DNA of 64,000 nt, taken from the NCBI RefSeq assembly GCF_044324785.1, contig NZ_CP172127.1, one strand, 5' to 3'. Positions 2,451-9,523 of this stretch are shown here, in pieces (the stretch's first letter is position 1; every line of letters begins with the position of its first letter). The notes under the pieces are model-generated. The model did no database searches. It was not told where the DNA came from and saw only the letters and a program-made list of their open reading frames with translations. The position numbers and the translations under genes were made by a program. The stretch is from Escherichia coli. Its GTDB lineage: Bacteria > Pseudomonadota > Gammaproteobacteria > Enterobacterales > Enterobacteriaceae.

Positions 2451-3152
2451 ATGACTCAATACGTATTCGAACCACAAGCGCCCGTTACCGTACCGGTTGT
2501 TGGCAGTGATGAACAATTCCCCGTACGCCGCGTTTACTGCGTCGGACGTAACTATGCCGCCCACGCCCGCGAAATGGGCTTTGATCCGGATCGTGAACCG
2601 CCATTCTTCTTCTGCAAACCGGCGGATGCCGTTGTTCCGGTTGCCGCTGGCGAAACGCTGGCGCTGCCGTATCCGGCGCAGACCGATAACTACCATTATG
2701 AAATTGAACTGGTGGTGGCGATTGGTAAAAAAGGCAGTGATATCCCGCTGGAAAACGCCCATGAATATGTCTGGGGTTATGCCACGGGTCTTGATATGAC
2801 TCGCCGTGACCGTCAAATGGAAATGCGCCAGATGGGCCGCCCGTGGGAAATCGGCAAAGCGTTCGATCTCTCGGCCCCCATCGCGCCGCTGCACAAAGCC
2901 AGCGAAACTGGCGGTATTGATAACGCACCTATCTGGTTACAGGTTAACGGCGAAGATCATCAGCGCAGCGATATTCGTCATCTCATCTGGTCAGTGAATG
3001 AAACCATCAGCTACCTGTCAGGCTTCTTTGAGCTGCAACCGGGCGATCTAATCTTTACCGGTACGCCGGAAGGGGTTGGCCCAGTAGTCAAAGGTGATGT
3101 GATCACGGGCAACGTCGAGGGCTTAACGCCTATCGCGGTGAAGATTGTCTGA
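2451..3152 (+). CDS. mhbH: fumarylpyruvate hydrolase (FAH family)
   Basis: 233-aa ORF typical of fumarylacetoacetate-hydrolase family; follows dioxygenase. Confidence 0.75.
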
Positions 3153-3156
3153 GGTG

Positions 3157-3804
3157 ATGATGAAGCTGTACAGTTTTTTTAATAGTTCAGCGTCTTACCG
3201 GGTGCGCATTGCGCTGGCGCTGAAGGGTATCGATTACCAGACCGAAGGGGTGAATATCCGCATTGGTCAGCAAAACGAACTGGCCTACCGGCGGATGAAT
3301 CCGGTCGGGCTGGTGCCGACGCTGCTGACCGACGAGGGCGAATCACTCGGACAATCGCTGGCGATTATTGACTGGCTGGAGAGTCACTACCCGCAAGTTC
3401 CGCTGATGCCGCAGGAAGAACCGGCCCGCAACAAGGTGCTGGAAATTGTCTATGCCATCGCCTGCGATATTCATCCATTGAATAACCTACGCGTGCTGCG
3501 CTACCTGACCGAAGAGCTGAACGTCAGTGAAGAAGATAAAAAACGCTGGTATGCGCACTGGATCCAGCAAGGGTTAAGCGCGGTGGAACAGCTACTGCGC
3601 CAGAGCCAGTCGGGGCAATTTTGTGTGGGCGAGACGCCGACGCTGGCAGATTGCTGCCTTGTTCCACAGTGGGCGAACGCGCTACGTATGAACTGCGATC
3701 TGAGCGGGTATCCGCGCTGCAAAGCGGTGTACGACGCCTGCACGCAGCTGCCAGCGTTCATTGCCGCAGCGCCAGAAAATCAACAAGATAAAATTTCAGC
3801 CTGA
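3157..3804 (+). CDS. mhbI: maleylpyruvate isomerase (glutathione S-transferase zeta class)
   Basis: GST-fold ORF; ORF-track start at 3145 is TTG, first ATG at 3157 preceded by GAGGTG; overlaps upstream stop. Confidence 0.7.
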   Translation: MMKLYSFFNSSASYRVRIALALKGIDYQTEGVNIRIGQQNELAYRRMNPVGLVPTLLTDEGESLGQSLAIIDWLESHYPQVPLMPQEEPARNKVLEIVYAIACDIHPLNNLRVLRYLTEELNVSEEDKKRWYAHWIQQGLSAVEQLLRQSQSGQFCVGETPTLADCCLVPQWANALRMNCDLSGYPRCKAVYDACTQLPAFIAAAPENQQDKISA

Positions 3805-5073: not shown

Positions 5074-6021
5074 ATGCGTGTGTTACTGGCTCCGATGGAG
5101 GGTGTGCTTGACTCTCTGGTGCGTGAATTGCTGACCGAAGTTAACGACTACGATCTGTGCATCACCGAGTTTGTCCGCGTGGTGGATCAACTGCTGCCGG
5201 TAAAAGTCTTTCATCGCATTTGCCCTGAGCTACAAAACGCCAGCCGGACACCATCCGGTACGCTGGTGCGCGTGCAGTTGTTAGGTCAGTTCCCACAATG
5301 GCTGGCAGAGAATGCCGCCCGTGCGGTCGAGTTAGGTTCCTGGGGCGTGGATCTCAATTGCGGCTGCCCGTCGAAAACGGTTAACGGTAGCGGCGGTGGG
5401 GCGACGTTACTCAAAGATCCTGAACTCATCTATCAGGGTGCAAAAGCGATGCGCGAAGCTGTACCGGCGCATTTGCCCGTAAGCGTAAAAGTGCGTCTGG
5501 GCTGGGACAGCGGTGAGAAGAAATTTGAAATCGCCGATGCGGTGCAACAGGCTGGCGCTACGGAGCTGGTGGTGCATGGGCGGACAAAAGAGCAGGGTTA
5601 CCGCGCGGAGCATATTGACTGGCAGGCGATTGGCGAGATTCGCCAGCGGCTGAATATTCCGGTGATTGCCAACGGTGAAATCTGGGACTGGCAGAGTGCG
5701 CAACAATGCATGGCGATCAGCGGCTGTGACGCAGTGATGATTGGTCGCGGGGCGCTCAATATTCCCAACCTGAGCCGGGTGGTAAAATATAACGAACCGC
5801 GAATGCCGTGGCCGGAGGTGGTTGCTTTGCTGCAAAAATATACCCGTCTGGAAAAGCAGGGCGATACCGGGTTATATCACGTTGCGCGGATTAAACAGTG
5901 GTTGAGTTATTTGCGTAAAGAATACGATGAAGCAACGGAATTATTTCAGCATGTTCGGGTGTTGAATAATTCCCCTGATATTGCAAGGGCTATTCAGGCA
6001 ATTGATATCGAGAAACTCTAA
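5074..6021 (+). CDS. dusC: tRNA-dihydrouridine(16) synthase DusC
   Basis: 315 aa from internal ATG ([13 protein letters not shown]...) matches K-12 DusC N-terminus; ORF track extends 16 codons upstream. Confidence 0.9.
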
Positions 6022-6252
6022 AAAACCATAGTGATGTTTTTTGACAATGTGTTAGCTCTTTATCAATAGGCCGCACGGTTGTTTGGTGGCGTCAAAATCG
6101 CCGAGGCGTTCCCTGAAGGCCGGGGCAGCCCACATGGATGTGGGCTGAGGGCGCGTTTTACAGGGATAATGAGATGGACGCTCCAGATTTTACGGTATCA
6201 AAGTACCAGACTGGATCGTTGCAATACGTCCTGAAAAATTAGGAGCGTCCAC

Positions 6253-7278
6253 ATGAAAGTATCAACTCTTGGTATCGACCTGGCAAAGAACGTTTTTCAG
6301 CTTCATGGTGTCGATCATGAAGGCCATACTATTTTGCGTAAAAAACTCACCCGGGCTAAGTTTGTTCAGTTTGTGATTCAACTGGAACCTTGTCTGATTG
6401 GCATGGAAGCCTGCTCATCCAGTCATTATTTTGCGCGATTATTCACCCGCTATGGTCATGAGGTAAAACTCATACCTCCGCAGTATGTGAAGCCTTATGT
6501 GAAAACGAACAAGACGGATGCAGCAGATGCTGAAGCAATCTGCGAAGCGGTAACCCGTCCGAATATGCGTTTTGTTCAGATAAAAACCGAAGAGCAGCAG
6601 GCCGTTTTAGCGTTACACACTGAACGGGGAATACTTATCCGTGAGCGGATTGCCTGTGCCAATAGTTTAAGAGCCACACTTGCTGAGTTTGGTATTACGA
6701 TTGCGGCCGGACAAAGCCATTTAACCCGTGAGCTGCCAGCCATTCTGGAGGATGGCGAAAATGGTTTATCTCCCTTTGTCAGAACCAGCATCTACAGACA
6801 GTCTAAACATATCCGGGAACTTGAAGAACAAGTTAAACAGGTAGAAGAAGCTCTGGCCTCCTGGTATAGAACGCAGGAAGCCTGCCAGAGAATGGCCAAA
6901 ATCCCGGGGGTTGGCATGCTAACGGCCACTTATGTGGTAGCAGCAGTGGGTAATGCCCGACAATTCAGTACCGCAAAGCAGTTCGCTTCATGGCTGGGGC
7001 TGACACCAAAGGAACATTCCAGCGGCGGGAAACAGCAACTGGGAGGGATCAGCAAACGTGGAGATGGATATTTCCGATACCTGCTGGTTCACGGCGCACG
7101 CGCACTTACCGCCTGGGTCAACCGAAACGGCGCGGTTGAGGAGAATTCCTGGCTTCAGGGACTCCTTGAGCGGAAGCACTACAATGTAGCTGTTGTCGCC
7201 ATGGCGGCAAAAACAGCGAGGATCATGTGGTCAATGTTGTCACACAATACTGAATATCAACCTCGGCAGCTCGCCTGA
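6253..7278 (+). CDS. IS110-family DEDD transposase/recombinase
   Basis: 341-aa ORF, N-terminal LGIDLAK RuvC-like motif, strong similarity in pattern to IS4321/IS5075-type transposases. Confidence 0.9.
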   Translation: MKVSTLGIDLAKNVFQLHGVDHEGHTILRKKLTRAKFVQFVIQLEPCLIGMEACSSSHYFARLFTRYGHEVKLIPPQYVKPYVKTNKTDAADAEAICEAVTRPNMRFVQIKTEEQQAVLALHTERGILIRERIACANSLRATLAEFGITIAAGQSHLTRELPAILEDGENGLSPFVRTSIYRQSKHIRELEEQVKQVEEALASWYRTQEACQRMAKIPGVGMLTATYVVAAVGNARQFSTAKQFASWLGLTPKEHSSGGKQQLGGISKRGDGYFRYLLVHGARALTAWVNRNGAVEENSWLQGLLERKHYNVAVVAMAAKTARIMWSMLSHNTEYQPRQLA

Positions 7279-7538
7279 CACAAGGTCAGTCAATCTGACG
7301 AGGTGCTGAAAAAAAGTTAACGTCCTGGTAGGTGCAGGTGACTTCAGAAGATGGCAAAACAGGTAAGACCGCAGGCAGGATACACCGAGAGGTAACAAGG
7401 GCAAGTTAGCCCGTAGAGGATGATTGGTACCTGCCTGGCGGATTTCATCATGGTTCGGGATAAAAATCCCATCAGAAACCGGATATATGGCTGCACCTAC
7501 CCGTTTTATTACATAACTGAAGAAAGCATTGCATTCCG
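7279..7538 (+). ncRNA. candidate IS-encoded structured ncRNA (bridge/seek-RNA-like) in 3' non-coding end of the IS
   Basis: 260-nt non-coding stretch between transposase stop and right IR containing 11-bp long-range inverted repeat GGTAGGTGCAG (7327-7337) / CTGCACCTACC (7491-7501). Confidence 0.3.
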
Positions 7539-7779
7539 GGAGCGTCCATATATGTTACCTCGCGCCCGACCCGGTAGCCGTAAGGGATAAGCCGAGGGCA
7601 CCGCGCAGCGGCGATTTTGTTCGCCAGAGCCCGGGGGTGCAGGGGGCGGCGGCGATTGGCCGCCCCCTGCGCGCTCCTTGCGCCAGTGATTATATGAAGC
7701 AATGCACATGACAGGAGCGCAACAGGATGAGAGACTGAAATATTCTCGTTATTTTCGGATCTGATGACATTAATTAATT

Positions 7780-7863
7780 TTAAAATATCATCTTAAATAC
7801 GCCAGTCACCACCAGTAGCCCAATCAGGAAAATAATCAATACAGCCCAGAGTATAATTTTCAT
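7780..7863 (-). CDS. yohP: small membrane protein YohP (27 aa)
   Basis: Manual translation of minus strand gives MKIILWAVLIIFLIGLLVVTGVFKMIF; below ORF-track length cut-off. Confidence 0.85.
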   Translation of the reverse strand: MKIILWAVLIIFLIGLLVVTGVFKMIF

Positions 7864-8086
7864 TGGCGTTCCTTTATTTGTGAGTGCTGAATAAGTATAG
7901 GAAAAAACGAAGTCCTTTGCCGTTATCCATAAACGATTAAGATAAATCGGAAGATATCATTCACTTAGTGTATATTTTTCTGGATATGTCATATTATTGC
8001 CACTGATGTTTTGCCACGCGAAACTAAAAAATATATCGCAACACACGGTAATCTCCGCGCACCTTTTCTTACCTGATTATTCCCCC

Positions 8087-9523
8087 ATGAATCGTGATTC
8101 CTTTTATCCCGCCATCGCCTGTTTTCCGCTGTTACTGATGCTGGCCGGGTGTGCGCCTATGCATGAAACCCGCCAGGCGTTAAGCCAGCAAACGCCTGCT
8201 GCACAAGTTGACACCGCATTACCCACGGCGCTGAAAAATGGTTGGCCAGACAGCCAATGGTGGCTGGAGTATCACGATAATCAGCTCACTTCCTTAATTA
8301 ACAATGCACTACAGAACGCACCGGATATGCAGGTGGCTGAACAGCGCATTCAGCTAGCTGAAGCCCAGGCGAAGGCAGTTGCTACTCAGGATGGTCCGCA
8401 GATCGACTTTTCTGCGGATATGGAGCGGCAAAAAATGTCGGCAGAAGGGTTAATGGGGCCGTTTGCTCTGAACGATCCTGCCGCAGGTACGACCGGTCCG
8501 TGGTACACCAACGGTACTTTTGGCTTAACGGCGGGCTGGCATCTCGATATCTGGGGAAAGAATCGGGCGGAGGTAACTGCTCGCCTGGGTACGGTTAAAG
8601 CACGAGCGGCGGAACGCGAGCAAACCCGCCAATTGCTGGCTGGCAGCGTAGCCCGCCTGTACTGGGAGTGGCAAACCCAGGCGGCGTTAAACACTGTCTT
8701 ACAGCAAATCGAAAAAGAGCAGAACACCATTATCGCCACCGATCGCCAGCTATATCAGAACGGGATTACTTCTTCAGTTGAAGGTGTGGAAACCGATATT
8801 AATGCCAGCAAAACCCGGCAGCAGCTCAACGATGTCGCGGGGAAAATGAAAATTATTGAGGCACGGTTAAGCGCACTTACAAATCACCAGACAAAGTCAC
8901 TGAAGCTTAAACCGGTCGCGTTGCCGAAAGTGGCAAGCCAGCTTCCTGATGAACTGGGGTACTCCTTACTGGCGCGGCGGGCAGATTTGCAGGCGGCGCA
9001 CTGGTACGTTGAGTCATCGTTAAGCACCATTGATGCGGCAAAAGCGGCATTTTATCCTGACATCAACCTGATGGCCTTCCTGCAACAGGATGCGTTGCAC
9101 TTAAGCGATCTGTTCCGTCATTCCGCGCAGCAAATGGGCGTTACGGCAGGCCTGACGCTACCCATTTTCGATAGTGGTCGTCTTAACGCCAATCTCGATA
9201 TCGCAAAAGCCGAAAGCAACTTGTCTATCGCCAGCTACAACAAAGCGGTGGTTGAAGCGGTGAATGACGTGGCGCGGGCAGCCAGTCAGGTTCAGACACT
9301 GGCGGAGAAAAACCAGCATCAGGCGCAAATTGAGCGCGATGCCTTGCGTGTAGTTGGTCTTGCGCAGGCGCGCTTTAACGCGGGCATCATTGCCGGTTCC
9401 CGCGTCAGCGAAGCCAGAATCCCGGCGCTTCGCGAGCGGGCCAATGGCCTGTTATTGCAAGGGCAGTGGCTGGATGCCTCCATTCAACTCACTGGTGCGT
9501 TGGGCGGGGGTTACAAACGCTGA
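8087..9523 (+). CDS. mdtQ: outer-membrane efflux channel (TolC/OprM family) MdtQ, intact
   Basis: 478 aa from ATG at 8087 (MNRDSFYPAIACFPLLLMLAGC lipobox); uninterrupted reading frame. Confidence 0.85.
   Translation: MNRDSFYPAIACFPLLLMLAGCAPMHETRQALSQQTPAAQVDTALPTALKNGWPDSQWWLEYHDNQLTSLINNALQNAPDMQVAEQRIQLAEAQAKAVATQDGPQIDFSADMERQKMSAEGLMGPFALNDPAAGTTGPWYTNGTFGLTAGWHLDIWGKNRAEVTARLGTVKARAAEREQTRQLLAGSVARLYWEWQTQAALNTVLQQIEKEQNTIIATDRQLYQNGITSSVEGVETDINASKTRQQLNDVAGKMKIIEARLSALTNHQTKSLKLKPVALPKVASQLPDELGYSLLARRADLQAAHWYVESSLSTIDAAKAAFYPDINLMAFLQQDALHLSDLFRHSAQQMGVTAGLTLPIFDSGRLNANLDIAKAESNLSIASYNKAVVEAVNDVARAASQVQTLAEKNQHQAQIERDALRVVGLAQARFNAGIIAGSRVSEARIPALRERANGLLLQGQWLDASIQLTGALGGGYKR

What the first reader, a model, noticed from the sequence alone, without database searches (positions are those of the whole stretch)
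7560..7700. GC-rich palindromic block abutting the IS right end
A ~140-bp stretch (e.g. GGGGCGGCGGCGATTGGCCGCCCCC hairpin at 7643-7667) lies between the IS and yohP, and another hairpin (CAGCCCACATGGATGTGGGCTG, 6127-6148) precedes the left end. Palindromic extragenic elements are preferred targets of some IS110-family members. This may be the disrupted target, or part of the element if my boundaries are wrong.
Basis: inference. Interest (0 to 1): 0.3.

Follow-up and report, generated by a model that had tools for sequence, protein, structure and literature searches.

The report
IS-split conserved structured intergenic repeat
The GC-rich block is the right-hand two-thirds of a strongly folded ~275-bp repeat found in almost every E. 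coli genome, which an RNA-guided insertion sequence has cut exactly in one hairpin loop; it is not a REP element, and what the repeat itself does is still unknown.

Summary
The block at 7560-7700 and the hairpin at 6126-6147 are two halves of one ~275-bp element. They are contiguous in E. coli K-12, which lacks the IS.

- **The element.** It is a low-copy dispersed repeat, present in 5425 of 5426 complete E. coli genomes (median 3 places). It also occurs in Klebsiella, Citrobacter, Pseudocitrobacter and E. albertii. It is unrelated to REP/BIME.
- **Its fold.** The fold is conserved and covarying: 96.7% of cells are paired, and 23 of 60 pairs show compensatory changes. A long closing stem encloses two hairpins with loops A(U/G)GGAU. 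A GC hairpin (7639-7670) and a further helix follow.
- **Closest known family.** This is the architecture of the Rfam TwoAYGGAY motif. The score is 30.9 bits, below the 43-bit cut-off, but the core is visibly homologous to members that pass.
- **The IS.** It is a 1386-bp IS1111-type element (6167-7552). It sits between A and U of the second hexaloop in all chromosomal E. coli copies examined (four loci) and in Klebsiella, Kluyvera and most Enterobacter relatives. Its 3' non-coding region carries GAGGUAACA, complementary to the right flank TGTTACCTC. This guide changes together with the flank in Klebsiella.
- **Function of the repeat.** Not shown. The loops match the CsrA SELEX consensus, which is my leading but unproven reading.

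The parts
5074..6021 (+). 3' part of dusC (tRNA-dihydrouridine(16) synthase), the upstream neighbour, on the same strand as the repeat
   Evidence: ORF ending at 6021; annotated dusC in the near-identical record ARL09/232
6071..6166 (+). Left part of the ~275-bp structured repeat: outer and P1 5' strands, P2 5' strand, hairpin 1, and the 5' half of hairpin 2 up to ACAGGGA
   Evidence: Contiguous with 7553 onward in K-12; homologous copies at lysO-aqpZ, ybaP-copA and yegH-asmA
6093..6103 (+). P1 5' strand CAAAATCGCCG, pairs with 7609-7619
   Evidence: Inverted repeat I2; helix 3 in A2 is 100% paired
6126..6147 (+). Hairpin 1, loop ACAUGGAUGU (AYGGAY hexaloop closed by AC/GU)
   Evidence: I13; A-U to G-C compensatory change of the loop-closing pair in Klebsiella and Citrobacter (columns 73/82)
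6167..7552 (+). IS1111-type (IS110-family) insertion sequence, 1386 bp. The boundary is ambiguous by 1-2 nt in E. coli because of the A/T at both junctions; it is fixed here by the Klebsiella junctions and the 7-nt/3-nt extension rule
   Evidence: Empty site in K-12; junctions in 7 E. coli copies and in Klebsiella, Kluyvera and Enterobacter; present in 179 of 5426 genomes
6174..6184 (+). Left subterminal inverted repeat ATGGACGCTCC, 7 nt from the IS end
   Evidence: I8, 11/11 complementary to 7539-7549
6253..7278 (+). Transposase gene, 341 aa, with DEDD_Tnp_IS110 and Transposase_20 domains
   Evidence: Pfam PF01548 E=3.3e-15 and PF02371 E=1.1e-24
7279..7538 (+). 3' non-coding region of the IS, the presumed source of the seekRNA/bridge-type guide RNA
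   Evidence: Position as in IS1111-family elements (PMC11187229); folds at -85.4 kcal/mol, z = -2.88
7389..7397 (+). Guide 'T': GAGGUAACA, complementary to the top strand TGTTACCTC (7553-7561) on the right of the insertion point
   Evidence: (I9); 87 of 5000 shuffles do as well; A to G in the Klebsiella IS where the flank has T to C; a non-repeat insertion site on pSTEC299 keeps GTTACCTC
7418..7422 (+). Candidate guide 'B': GGAUG, identical to top strand GGATG across the insertion point, on the opposite side of the same internal loop. Short and weak
   Evidence: order T then B and overlap in the target as described for IS1111 seekRNAs
7539..7549 (+). Right subterminal inverted repeat GGAGCGTCCAT, 3 nt from the IS end
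   Evidence: I8
7553..7724 (+). Right part of the structured repeat. The finding's block 7560-7700 lies inside it
7553..7567 (+). 3' half of hairpin 2 (UGUUACCU CGCGCCC), pairs with 6149-6166
   Evidence: Helices 9 and 10 in A2; helices 7 and 8 in A3
7609..7619 (+). P1 3' strand CGGCGATTTTG
   Evidence: I2; helix 3
7639..7670 (+). Domain II: 12-bp GC hairpin with conserved loop GGCGAUUG (7651-7658).
   Evidence: I7; 8 of 13 pairs show compensatory changes across copies (helix 10)
7672..7719 (+). Domain III: helix CGCUCCU (7672-7678) with AGGAGCG (7713-7719), closing a variable ~34-nt loop
   Evidence: 3 pairs with compensatory changes (GCGCUCC/GGAGCGC versus ACGUUCAC/GUGAACG in the yegH-type and Citrobacter copies, helix 11)
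7780..7863 (-). yohP (27-aa small membrane protein), the convergent downstream neighbour

Best explanation
**Shown.** The block is the 3' two-thirds of a ~275-nt conserved, highly structured intergenic repeat of Enterobacteriaceae. It has the architecture of the TwoAYGGAY RNA motif: a long closing stem P1, an inner stem P2, and two adjacent hairpins whose hexaloops are AUGGAU and AGGGAU. A GC hairpin with a conserved loop and a further helix follow. The repeat is the specific target of an RNA-guided IS1111-type insertion sequence. The IS integrates without target duplication between A and U of the second hexaloop (ACAGGGA|TGTTACCTC). This separates the two halves of P1, P2 and hairpin 2 by 1.4 kb, so the fold can no longer form in this copy.

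**Inferred, well supported.** The site is read by base pairing. GAGGUAACA in the IS 3' non-coding region pairs with the top strand of the right flank. A short GGAUG on the other side of the same RNA loop matches the left and junction bases.

**Inferred, weak (about 0.3).** The intact repeat works as RNA on this strand, read through from the upstream gene. It presents two high-affinity CsrA-type GGA hexaloops, so it binds CsrA or another loop-specific protein. The invariance this imposes on the loop is what makes it a dependable landing pad for the IS.
For: **One element, split by the IS.**
- The repeat family is in 5425 of 5426 genomes, median 3 places, at dusC-yohP, lysO-aqpZ, ybaP-copA, yegH-asmA and (partial) putP-efeU.
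- It is also in Klebsiella, Citrobacter, Pseudocitrobacter and E. albertii.

**Structure.**
- The K-12 copy folds at -141.6 kcal/mol, z = -5.09, with 0 of 200 shuffles as good.
- In the 15-copy alignment, 60 pairs are 96.7% paired against 38-46% when the partner is slid.
- 23 pairs carry compensatory changes against 2-6 when slid, and the covariation score is 0.262 against at most 0.066.
- G-U cells far outnumber A-C cells on this strand: about 58 against 6 in A2 (my count from the table).

**TwoAYGGAY link.**
- It is the best and only structured Rfam hit, at 30.9 bits and full model length.
- The two-loop pattern found more than 120 loci, several per genome.
- Some of these pass the Rfam cut-off: 72.6, 68.4 and 44.8 bits.
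- The Salinicola member that passes shares 58 of 74 aligned core positions with E. coli, and the differences lie in the stems.

**IS family features.**
- Pfam domains, subterminal inverted repeats 7 and 3 nt from the ends, and a 3' non-coding region, as in IS1111 elements.
- The insertion point is the same in 7 of 7 E. coli copies at 4 loci.
- It is also the same in K. aerogenes (3 sites), Kluyvera and Enterobacter relatives.

**Guide.**
- There is a 9-nt perfect complement touching the junction; 87 of 5000 shuffles do as well.
- In the Klebsiella IS the guide is GAGGUAGCA and the flank is CGCTGCCTC, an A-to-G change matched by T-to-C.
- An off-family insertion on pSTEC299 keeps GTTACCTC and nothing else of the repeat.

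**CsrA reading.**
- The SELEX consensus is RUACARGGAUGU, with a GGA hexaloop closed by AC/GU (PMC7652899).
- Hairpin 2 reads UUACAGGGAUGU and hairpin 1 CCACAUGGAUGU.
- TwoAYGGAY was proposed as a CsrA binder in PMC4333381.
Against: - The Rfam score is below the family's gathering cut-off (30.9 against 43), and hairpin 2 has AGGGAU or AAGGAC rather than AYGGAY.
- No sigma-70 promoter or intrinsic terminator consensus lies in or beside three copies, so transcription is not shown.
- The element lies in either orientation relative to its neighbours in different strains. A crude survey in other taxa shows only a mild bias towards a co-oriented upstream gene, 22 against 13.
- The published E. coli CsrA CLIP-seq tables list dusC and ybjE as not bound. 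Reads that map to repeats are often discarded, so this is weak evidence.
- The hairpin stems are 9-10 GC-rich pairs, whereas SELEX ligands mostly had 4 or fewer pairs.
- The 'B' match is only 5 nt.
- The Enterobacter IS variant (guide GAGGCAACA) has a C-A mismatch with its own flank.
- My whole-sequence G-U versus A-C strand test on distant copies was inconclusive.
Confidence: 0.75

Rival explanations
1. The repeat is a 3'-end element for convergent genes. It would be a very stable stem-loop cluster that blocks 3'-to-5' exonucleases or stops read-through, as REP/BIME elements do, and the GGA loops would be incidental.
For: Most annotated copies lie just downstream of, and co-oriented with, a gene in a convergent intergenic region. 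Examples are dusC to yohP, yohP to dusC in U13A, yegH, ybhB to proY, yeiP to torD, and ABC-F to GH31. The fold is extremely stable.
Against: No T-run terminator is present. The K-12 lysO-aqpZ copy is antisense to both neighbours. The two hexaloop sequences are conserved across phyla while the stems vary; a simple barrier would not require that.
Confidence: 0.2
2. The repeat is a DNA-level element: a small non-autonomous mobile element or recombination site whose hairpins act in single-stranded DNA. The IS simply prefers hairpin-forming DNA.
For: It occurs in both orientations at one locus, and presence or absence varies between strains. Genomes carry several near-identical copies. In other taxa it has long, perfectly paired P1 arms that differ between copies. 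The yegH-asmA copy abuts a truncated toxin gene.
Against: No terminal inverted repeats shared by copies and no target duplication were seen. Whole intergenic regions are replaced rather than interrupted. There are no copies on phages or genuine plasmids. G-U pairs are frequent on one strand in the enterobacterial alignment. No associated transposase was found.
Confidence: 0.15
3. The block is a REP/BIME (palindromic unit) cluster, the classic target of some IS110-family elements such as IS621.
For: It is GC-rich, palindromic, extragenic and repeated, and it is hit by an IS110-family element.
Against: It has no similarity to the REP cluster of K-12 ybaP-copA. The unit is ~275 bp and there are about 3 copies per genome. 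The architecture is different.
Confidence: 0.02
4. The block is the decayed leader of a small ORF or of a toxin-antitoxin operon. The AGGAG at 7713-7717 would be its ribosome-binding site, masked by 7672-7678.
For: AGGAGCGCAACA(A/G)GATG is followed by short ORFs in several copies. A Gp49/HigB-like fragment plus an HTH_37 gene follows the yegH-asmA copy.
Against: The short ORFs are not conserved in length or sequence (MRD*, MMNQHITTS*, MLNTQIGLKIPL*). In the yegH-type and Citrobacter copies the helix is kept with a different sequence lacking AGGAG. The toxin fragment lacks its N-terminal half.
Confidence: 0.05
5. The block belongs to the IS.
For: None beyond adjacency.
Against: The block is present without the IS in K-12 and in about 97% of genomes. 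The IS ends are defined by several empty and filled sites.
Confidence: 0.01

Closest known systems
TwoAYGGAY RNA motif (Rfam RF01731; Weinberg et al. 2010, PMC2864571)
   Same: Two adjacent hairpins with A-Y-G-G-A-Y-type hexaloops, enclosed by an inner stem and a long closing P1. Several copies per genome. Found in Gammaproteobacteria. Function unknown. The core is visibly homologous to a Salinicola member that passes the Rfam cut-off.
   Different: The E. coli copies score 30.9 bits, below the 43-bit cut-off. Hairpin 2 has a purine at loop position 2. There are two extra 3' domains (the GC hairpin with loop GGCGAUUG, and the helix 7672-7678/7713-7719) that are not in the Rfam model.
IS1111-family insertion sequences with a seekRNA (ISEc11, ISKpn4, ISPa11, IS4321/IS5075; Siddiquee et al. 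2024, PMC11187229)
   Same: DEDD transposase of 341 aa. Subterminal inverted repeats 7 and 3 nt from the ends. A long non-coding region downstream of tnp. No target duplication. One orientation and one position in a specific target. Short RNA segments matching the top and bottom strands, in the order T then B.
   Different: The target is different: ACAGGGA|TGTTACCTC in a hairpin loop of a chromosomal structured repeat, whereas ISEc11 uses GTGAAAATACTG. No ISfinder name could be assigned here, because the sources only say 'IS110 family transposase'. The RNA itself was not observed.
IS621 and ISPpu9 (IS110 family) inserting into REP sequences
   Same: An RNA-guided IS110-family element using a conserved, repeated, hairpin-forming extragenic sequence as a safe landing site (PMC12288879 abstract; IS621 in PMC11187229).
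   Different: Different subgroup: the non-coding RNA is upstream of tnp and there are no subterminal repeats. The target family is also different (REP, hundreds of copies, ~35 bp).
CsrB/CsrC and Rsm sRNAs, and CsrA binding sites in general
   Same: GGA in a hexaloop closed by AC/GU. Hairpin 2 matches 11 of 12 positions of RUACARGGAUGU, and two sites sit side by side as a CsrA dimer would need.
   Different: Only two optimal sites rather than about 18-22. The stems are much longer. There is no evidence of transcription or of CsrA binding.
RSA repeats of E. coli K-12 (150/151 bp, six copies in the original genome annotation; PMC5172473 Table 1)
   Same: A little-studied enterobacterial intergenic repeat of about the size of domain I.
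   Different: K-12 has only 3 blastn places for domain I (H120) against six RSA copies. No RSA sequence or coordinates were available, so identity could not be tested.

Membership tests
TwoAYGGAY RNA (RF01731) | Score at or above Rfam's gathering cut-off (43 bits) | tested here: not met
   30.9 bits (K-12 dusC-yohP copy) and 30.6 bits (lysO-aqpZ copy), full-length alignment, E = 0.11-0.13 in an 8.8-kb search. The interrupted copy in the window gives no hit.
TwoAYGGAY RNA (RF01731) | Two terminal loops containing AYGGAY | tested here: inconclusive
   Hairpin 1 has AUGGAU in all copies. Hairpin 2 has AGGGAU, AAGGAC or ACGGAC, so GGA and the flanking A and Y are kept but position 2 is usually a purine.
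TwoAYGGAY RNA (RF01731) | A P1 stem, often very long, closing the two hairpins | tested here: met
   CAAAAUCGCCG (6093-6103) pairs with CGGCGAUUUUG (7609-7619), with further outer and inner helices that covary. The description of P1 is in the Weinberg supplement.
TwoAYGGAY RNA (RF01731) | Sequence continuity with accepted members | tested here: met
   Salinicola L046 passes the cut-off at 44.8 bits. It shares 58 of 74 aligned core positions with E. coli, including the junctions CCGGGGC, GAGG(G)CGCG and GACCCG.
IS1111 group of the IS110 family | DEDD (RuvC-like) N-terminal domain plus Transposase_20 C-terminal domain, 330-350 aa | tested here: met
   341 aa; PF01548 at E = 3.3e-15 and PF02371 at E = 1.1e-24; length range from PMC11187229.
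IS1111 group of the IS110 family | Subterminal inverted repeats; long non-coding region downstream of tnp | tested here: met
   11/11 inverted repeat at 6174-6184 and 7539-7549, 7 and 3 nt from the ends. The 3' non-coding region is 274 nt against 86 nt at the 5' end.
IS1111 group of the IS110 family | Site- and orientation-specific insertion without target duplication | tested here: met
   Same nucleotide and orientation in 7 E. coli copies at 4 loci and in 3 other genera. The Klebsiella junctions leave no duplicated bases beyond a 1-nt ambiguity.
IS1111 group of the IS110 family | [quoted passage not shown] | tested here: inconclusive
   The T match is 9 nt and perfect, with one compensatory change in Klebsiella. 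The B match is only 5 nt. The RNA itself cannot be observed with these tools.
REP/BIME palindromic units | ~35-bp imperfect palindrome of REP consensus, hundreds of copies, in clusters | tested here: not met
   No blastn similarity between the element and the K-12 ybaP-copA REP cluster. The unit is ~275 bp with a median of 3 places per genome.
CsrA-binding RNA | GGA in a hairpin hexaloop matching RUACARGGAUGU; at least two sites | tested here: met
   UUACAGGGAUGU matches 11 of 12 positions and CCACAUGGAUGU 9 of 12. Both are predicted as hexaloops closed by AC/GU, with loop centres about 34 nt apart.
CsrA-binding RNA | Demonstrated binding to CsrA, or a CsrA-dependent effect | not testable with these tools
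   The only data reachable, the Potts 2017 supplementary tables, show no CLIP call for dusC or ybjE. Intergenic repeats are not tabulated there.
RSA repeats | 150/151-bp unit, six copies in K-12 | tested here: inconclusive
   The copy number does not fit: 3 places in MG1655. No RSA sequence was available for a direct comparison.

The most novel reading that the evidence does not exclude
The enterobacterial repeat, and the wider TwoAYGGAY class, would be a self-spreading structured RNA/DNA module rather than an ordinary sRNA gene. Its two invariant GGA hexaloops would be protein-recognition sites (CsrA or an unknown partner). Its long P1 arms are perfectly paired yet differ between copies of one genome, so they would be made or renewed at each new insertion. 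An IS1111 lineage would have co-evolved its guide RNA with the local variant of the module in each genus, using it as a safe harbour.
Probability: 0.12. Interest if true: 0.75.

Novelty: new member of a known kind. Interest (0 to 1): 0.42.

Why it matters
- **An unannotated element in a model organism.** E. coli K-12 carries at least two full copies of a 275-nt element that folds better than any shuffle, covaries, and displays two near-optimal CsrA-type hairpins. The K-12 record shows nothing annotated there. If it is transcribed, it is an unrecognised player, or at least a sink, in the Csr network. It would also be the first experimentally tractable member of the orphan TwoAYGGAY class.
- **A natural test of RNA-guided targeting.** The IS-target pair shows one element, one 16-nt site, a guide change that tracks the target change between genera, and an off-target site that keeps only the guide-matched 8 nt.
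- **Practical consequences.** The repeat explains recurrent sub-clonal 'mutations' reported at ybjE/aqpZ and yohP/dusC in K-12 resequencing. The IS copies in it are substrates for megabase inversions.

Tried and rejected
- **REP/BIME identity:** rejected, with no similarity and the wrong size and copy number.
- **Block as part of the IS:** rejected.
- **RSA identity:** the copy number does not fit and no sequence was available.
- **Rfam on the interrupted window copy:** only chance-level hits to AgvB and mir-611.
- **Other copies in the 64-kb window:** none.
- **Promoter and terminator scans of three copies:** nothing conserved.
- **Conserved small ORF after AGGAG:** not conserved.
- **CsrA CLIP-seq supplementary tables:** no call for the neighbouring genes.
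- **Phage collection:** no match. Plasmid hits are chromosome fragments or mislabelled replicons, all 'non-mobilizable'.
- **Crude G-U versus A-C strand test on 56 distant copies:** uninformative, because the flanks dominate the folds.
- **Orientation survey of neighbours in distant taxa:** only 22 against 13 for a co-oriented upstream ORF.
- **Search of the seekRNA paper and its supplements for this target or IS end:** not mentioned.
- **Naming the IS from protein cluster names:** only generic names.
- **Literature search for the element by its neighbouring genes:** only resequencing tables and genomic SELEX lists.

Full report
**Setting.** The window is E. coli chromosome. dusC ends at 6021 (+), yohP lies at 7780-7863 (-) and mdtQ follows. 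Between dusC and yohP sits an IS110-family element with a 341-aa transposase at 6253-7278 (Pfam DEDD_Tnp_IS110 and Transposase_20).

**Observation.**
- 7639-7650 and 7659-7670 are 12/12 complementary with an 8-nt loop.
- 6126-6135 and 6138-6147 are 10/10 complementary.
- The block 7560-7700 is 69.5% G+C against 51.2% for the window.

**One element, split.**
- A megablast of 5950-7900 against 5,426 complete E. coli genomes found the filled site in 132 genomes.
- In most others it found an empty site of 565 bp.
- In K-12 the sequence runs ...GGGCGCGTTTTACAGGGATGTTACCTCGCGCCC... without interruption.
- The left hairpin and the right block are therefore parts of one sequence of about 275 bp. In the window it spans 6071-6166 plus 7553-7724.

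**The IS and its boundaries.**
- The IS carries 11-bp subterminal inverted repeats (6174-6184 and 7539-7549).
- These lie 7 and 3 nt from ends placed at 6167 and 7552, with a 274-nt non-coding region after the transposase gene.
- These are the hallmarks of the IS1111 group as described by Siddiquee et al. 2024.
- In E. coli the junction is ambiguous by the dinucleotide AT.
- The Klebsiella junctions (GCAGGGA|T......ATA|CGCTGCC against an empty GCAGGGACGCTGCC) reduce the ambiguity to one base and fit the 7/3 rule.

**A repeat family, not REP.**
- The flanking 275 bp recurs elsewhere. K-12 has a second full copy between lysO and aqpZ (94%) and partial copies at putP-efeU and yegH-asmA.
- Other strains have copies at ybaP-copA and a diverged full copy at yegH-asmA.
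- Domain I alone matches 5425 of 5426 genomes, with a median of 3 places and a maximum of 10.
- Related copies (82-88%) occur in Klebsiella, Citrobacter, Pseudocitrobacter and E. albertii.
- There is no similarity to the canonical REP cluster that K-12 carries at ybaP-copA, where strain N3 carries the repeat instead.
- Phages have no copy. The 'plasmid' hits are all non-mobilizable records, mostly chromosome-sized or carrying chromosomal gene contexts in those examined.

**Structure.**
- The K-12 copy folds at -141.6 kcal/mol, z = -5.09.
- I aligned twelve Escherichia and Pseudocitrobacter copies, then fifteen with Klebsiella and Citrobacter added. RNAalifold gave one consistent structure.
- On the larger alignment, 60 pairs are 96.7% paired against 38-46% when the 3' partner is slid by 1-3 columns.
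- 23 pairs carry changes on both sides against 2-6 when slid. No shuffle out of 500 reaches the observed covariation score.
- Domain I: an outer helix, P1 (CAAAAUCGCCG / CGGCGAUUUUG), further helices, P2 (CCGGGG / CCCGG), hairpin 1 (loop ACAUGGAUGU) and hairpin 2 (GGGCGCG...UUACAGGGAUGUUA...CGCGCCC).
Its stem covaries (GGGGGCGGC / GCCGCCCCC, GGGGGAGGA / TCCTCCCCC, CCAGGGTGG / CCACCCTGG) while its loop GGCGAUUG is conserved.
- Domain III: a helix, CGCUCCU with AGGAGCG. It is replaced by ACGUUCAC with GUGAACG in the yegH-type and Citrobacter copies.
- In Klebsiella and Citrobacter the loop-closing A-U pairs of both hairpins become G-C (columns 73/82 and 103/112).
- G-U cells greatly outnumber A-C cells on this strand in the first alignment. 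This points to RNA, or at least to this strand, but many of these pairs are invariant, so the number of independent events is small.

**Relation to TwoAYGGAY.**
- On the uninterrupted K-12 copies, Rfam's only structured hit is TwoAYGGAY (RF01731). It is aligned end to end at 30.9 and 30.6 bits, below the 43-bit cut-off.
- I scanned one genome per species for ACATGGATGT-N15-45-ACARGGAYGT. There are often several copies per genome, and nearly all show the two hairpins with different, complementary stems.
- Of 18 such loci re-scanned with Rfam, three pass the TwoAYGGAY cut-off: a Lachnospiraceae MAG at 72.6, Psychromonas at 68.4 and Salinicola at 44.8. One is Bacillaceae-1 on the opposite strand.
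- The Salinicola core shares 58 of 74 aligned positions with E. coli, including the junction sequences between helices.
- I therefore regard the enterobacterial repeat as a diverged relative of TwoAYGGAY with two extra 3' domains. By Rfam's own criterion it is not a member.

**How the IS finds it.**
- All seven E. coli IS copies I examined, at four loci, lie at the same nucleotide and in the same orientation.
- So do relatives in K. aerogenes (96.3% identical, three sites), Kluyvera (97.2%) and Enterobacter (91.7%).
- In the 3' non-coding region, GAGGUAACA (7389-7397) is the perfect complement of TGTTACCTC, the nine bases to the right of the cut. Only 87 of 5000 shuffles give a junction-touching match that long.
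- In the predicted fold it lies on one side of an internal loop around a small hairpin (GGGC...GCCC). The other side carries GGAUG, identical to the top strand across the cut.
- The order (T, then B) and the overlap in the target are as reported for IS1111 seekRNAs.
- Two natural experiments support the T guide.
  - The Klebsiella IS has GAGGUAGCA and sits next to CGCTGCCTC. The A-to-G change is matched by T-to-C, a second difference becomes a U-G wobble, and the last base is mismatched.
  - A truncated copy on plasmid pSTEC299 lies outside any repeat, yet is followed by GTTACCTC and then unrelated sequence.
- The Enterobacter variant (GAGGCAACA) carries one mismatch with its flank, so the rule is not perfect.
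- The B match is too short to stand on its own.

**What the repeat does.** This is not shown.
- The two loops fit the CsrA SELEX consensus RUACARGGAUGU, with GGA in a hexaloop closed by AC/GU. Hairpin 2 fits 11 of 12 positions and hairpin 1 fits 9 of 12.
- TwoAYGGAY was already proposed as a CsrA binder on this basis.
- Many hits of my pattern scan look like Rsm/Csr-type sRNAs, with tandem GGA hairpins.
- Against this reading:
  - No promoter or terminator consensus accompanies the element.
  - It occurs in both orientations at one locus in different lineages.
  - The published CLIP tables do not flag the neighbouring genes.
  - The stems are far more stable than SELEX ligands.
- I therefore give the CsrA reading about 0.3, a 3'-end barrier role about 0.2 and a DNA-level mobile element about 0.15.
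- Whatever the function, the IS removes it in this copy, since P1, P2 and hairpin 2 are each split across 1.4 kb.

**Known or new.**
- RNA-guided target choice by IS1111 elements is known, as is the TwoAYGGAY motif as an orphan.
- Two things appear not to be described in what I could search:
  - The repeat is unannotated in the K-12 record.
  - This IS lineage targets the second hexaloop, with its guide tracking the genus-specific variant.
- I could not exclude that the repeat corresponds to the old 'RSA' class, though the copy number does not fit.
- I rate it a new member of known kinds, of moderate interest.

Noticed in passing
L011 (E. coli KOr019) and L013 (E. coli 702/18), IS at 1501-2886 in each: Hybrid junctions lysO-IS-yohP-mdtQ and dusC-IS-aqpZ-ybjD. 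The left and right halves of the repeat come from different loci, so these look like megabase inversions by recombination between the IS/repeat copies at lysO-aqpZ and dusC-yohP.
   Followed up: partly
L004, L006 (dusC-yohP in U13A, GN05056); L005 (lysO-aqpZ in CFIAFB20190167): The repeat lies in the opposite orientation relative to the same flanking genes as in K-12, at 89-92% identity. The whole intergenic region is replaced and there is no duplication or terminal repeat. The mechanism is unknown.
   Followed up: partly
L122-L125 (one gammaproteobacterial MAG); also L037, L049, L064, L065: In distant relatives the two GGA hairpins are closed by a 20-35-bp P1. It is perfectly paired in each copy, but its central ~14 nt differ between copies of the same genome.
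   Followed up: no
L010, L012, L014 at 3046-3547 (yegH-asmA locus): The diverged copy of the repeat abuts a 73-codon ORF that matches only the C-terminal half of Gp49/HigB-like toxins (PF05973, profile 47-90). An HTH_37 antitoxin-like gene follows. The repeat seems to have replaced the toxin's 5' end.
   Followed up: partly
L016 3082-3875 (K-12 ybaP-copA) versus L009 (strain N3): Alternative inserts at one locus: K-12 has ybaQ plus a three-unit REP cluster (725 bp) where N3 has the 275-bp repeat with ~80 bp of other sequence.
   Followed up: partly
K-12 coordinates 915,226 and 2,229,177 / 2,229,205 (inside the two K-12 copies of the repeat): An experimental-evolution paper (PMC11510482) lists 'mutations' at 11-45% frequency at exactly these intergenic positions. 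They are most likely read cross-mapping or gene conversion between the two copies.
   Followed up: no
L140, L141, L143 (Klebsiella copies), about 90 nt before and 60 nt after the element: A ~20-bp direct repeat (CTACGGTCCGTGCGGCCTGCC and variants) flanks the Klebsiella copies. The unit there may therefore be larger, or may be bounded by another repeat.
   Followed up: no
window 7651-7658 versus 7610-7619 and 6093-6102: The conserved loop GGCGAUUG of the GC hairpin repeats the P1 3' strand GGCGAUUUUG (direct repeat D1). It could pair with CAAAAUCGCC instead of it, which hints at an alternative fold.
   Followed up: no
window 7997-9523 (+): mdtQ appears as one uninterrupted ORF in the window and is annotated as intact in the near-identical record ARL09/232. 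In K-12 it is annotated as a frameshifted pseudogene.
   Followed up: no
window 7697-7757 (-): Weak Rfam match to AgvB (22.9 bits, cut-off 56) just downstream of yohP. Treated as chance.
   Followed up: no
L153 (Enterobacter-type IS variant) and L015 (pSTEC299), L144 (plasmid remnant): IS copies outside the repeat. L153 has CATGGA|T on the left and TGCTTGCCT on the right. L015 keeps GTTACCTC on the right. L144 is a decayed remnant next to GCTGCCAC. They are useful as natural off-target sites.
   Followed up: partly
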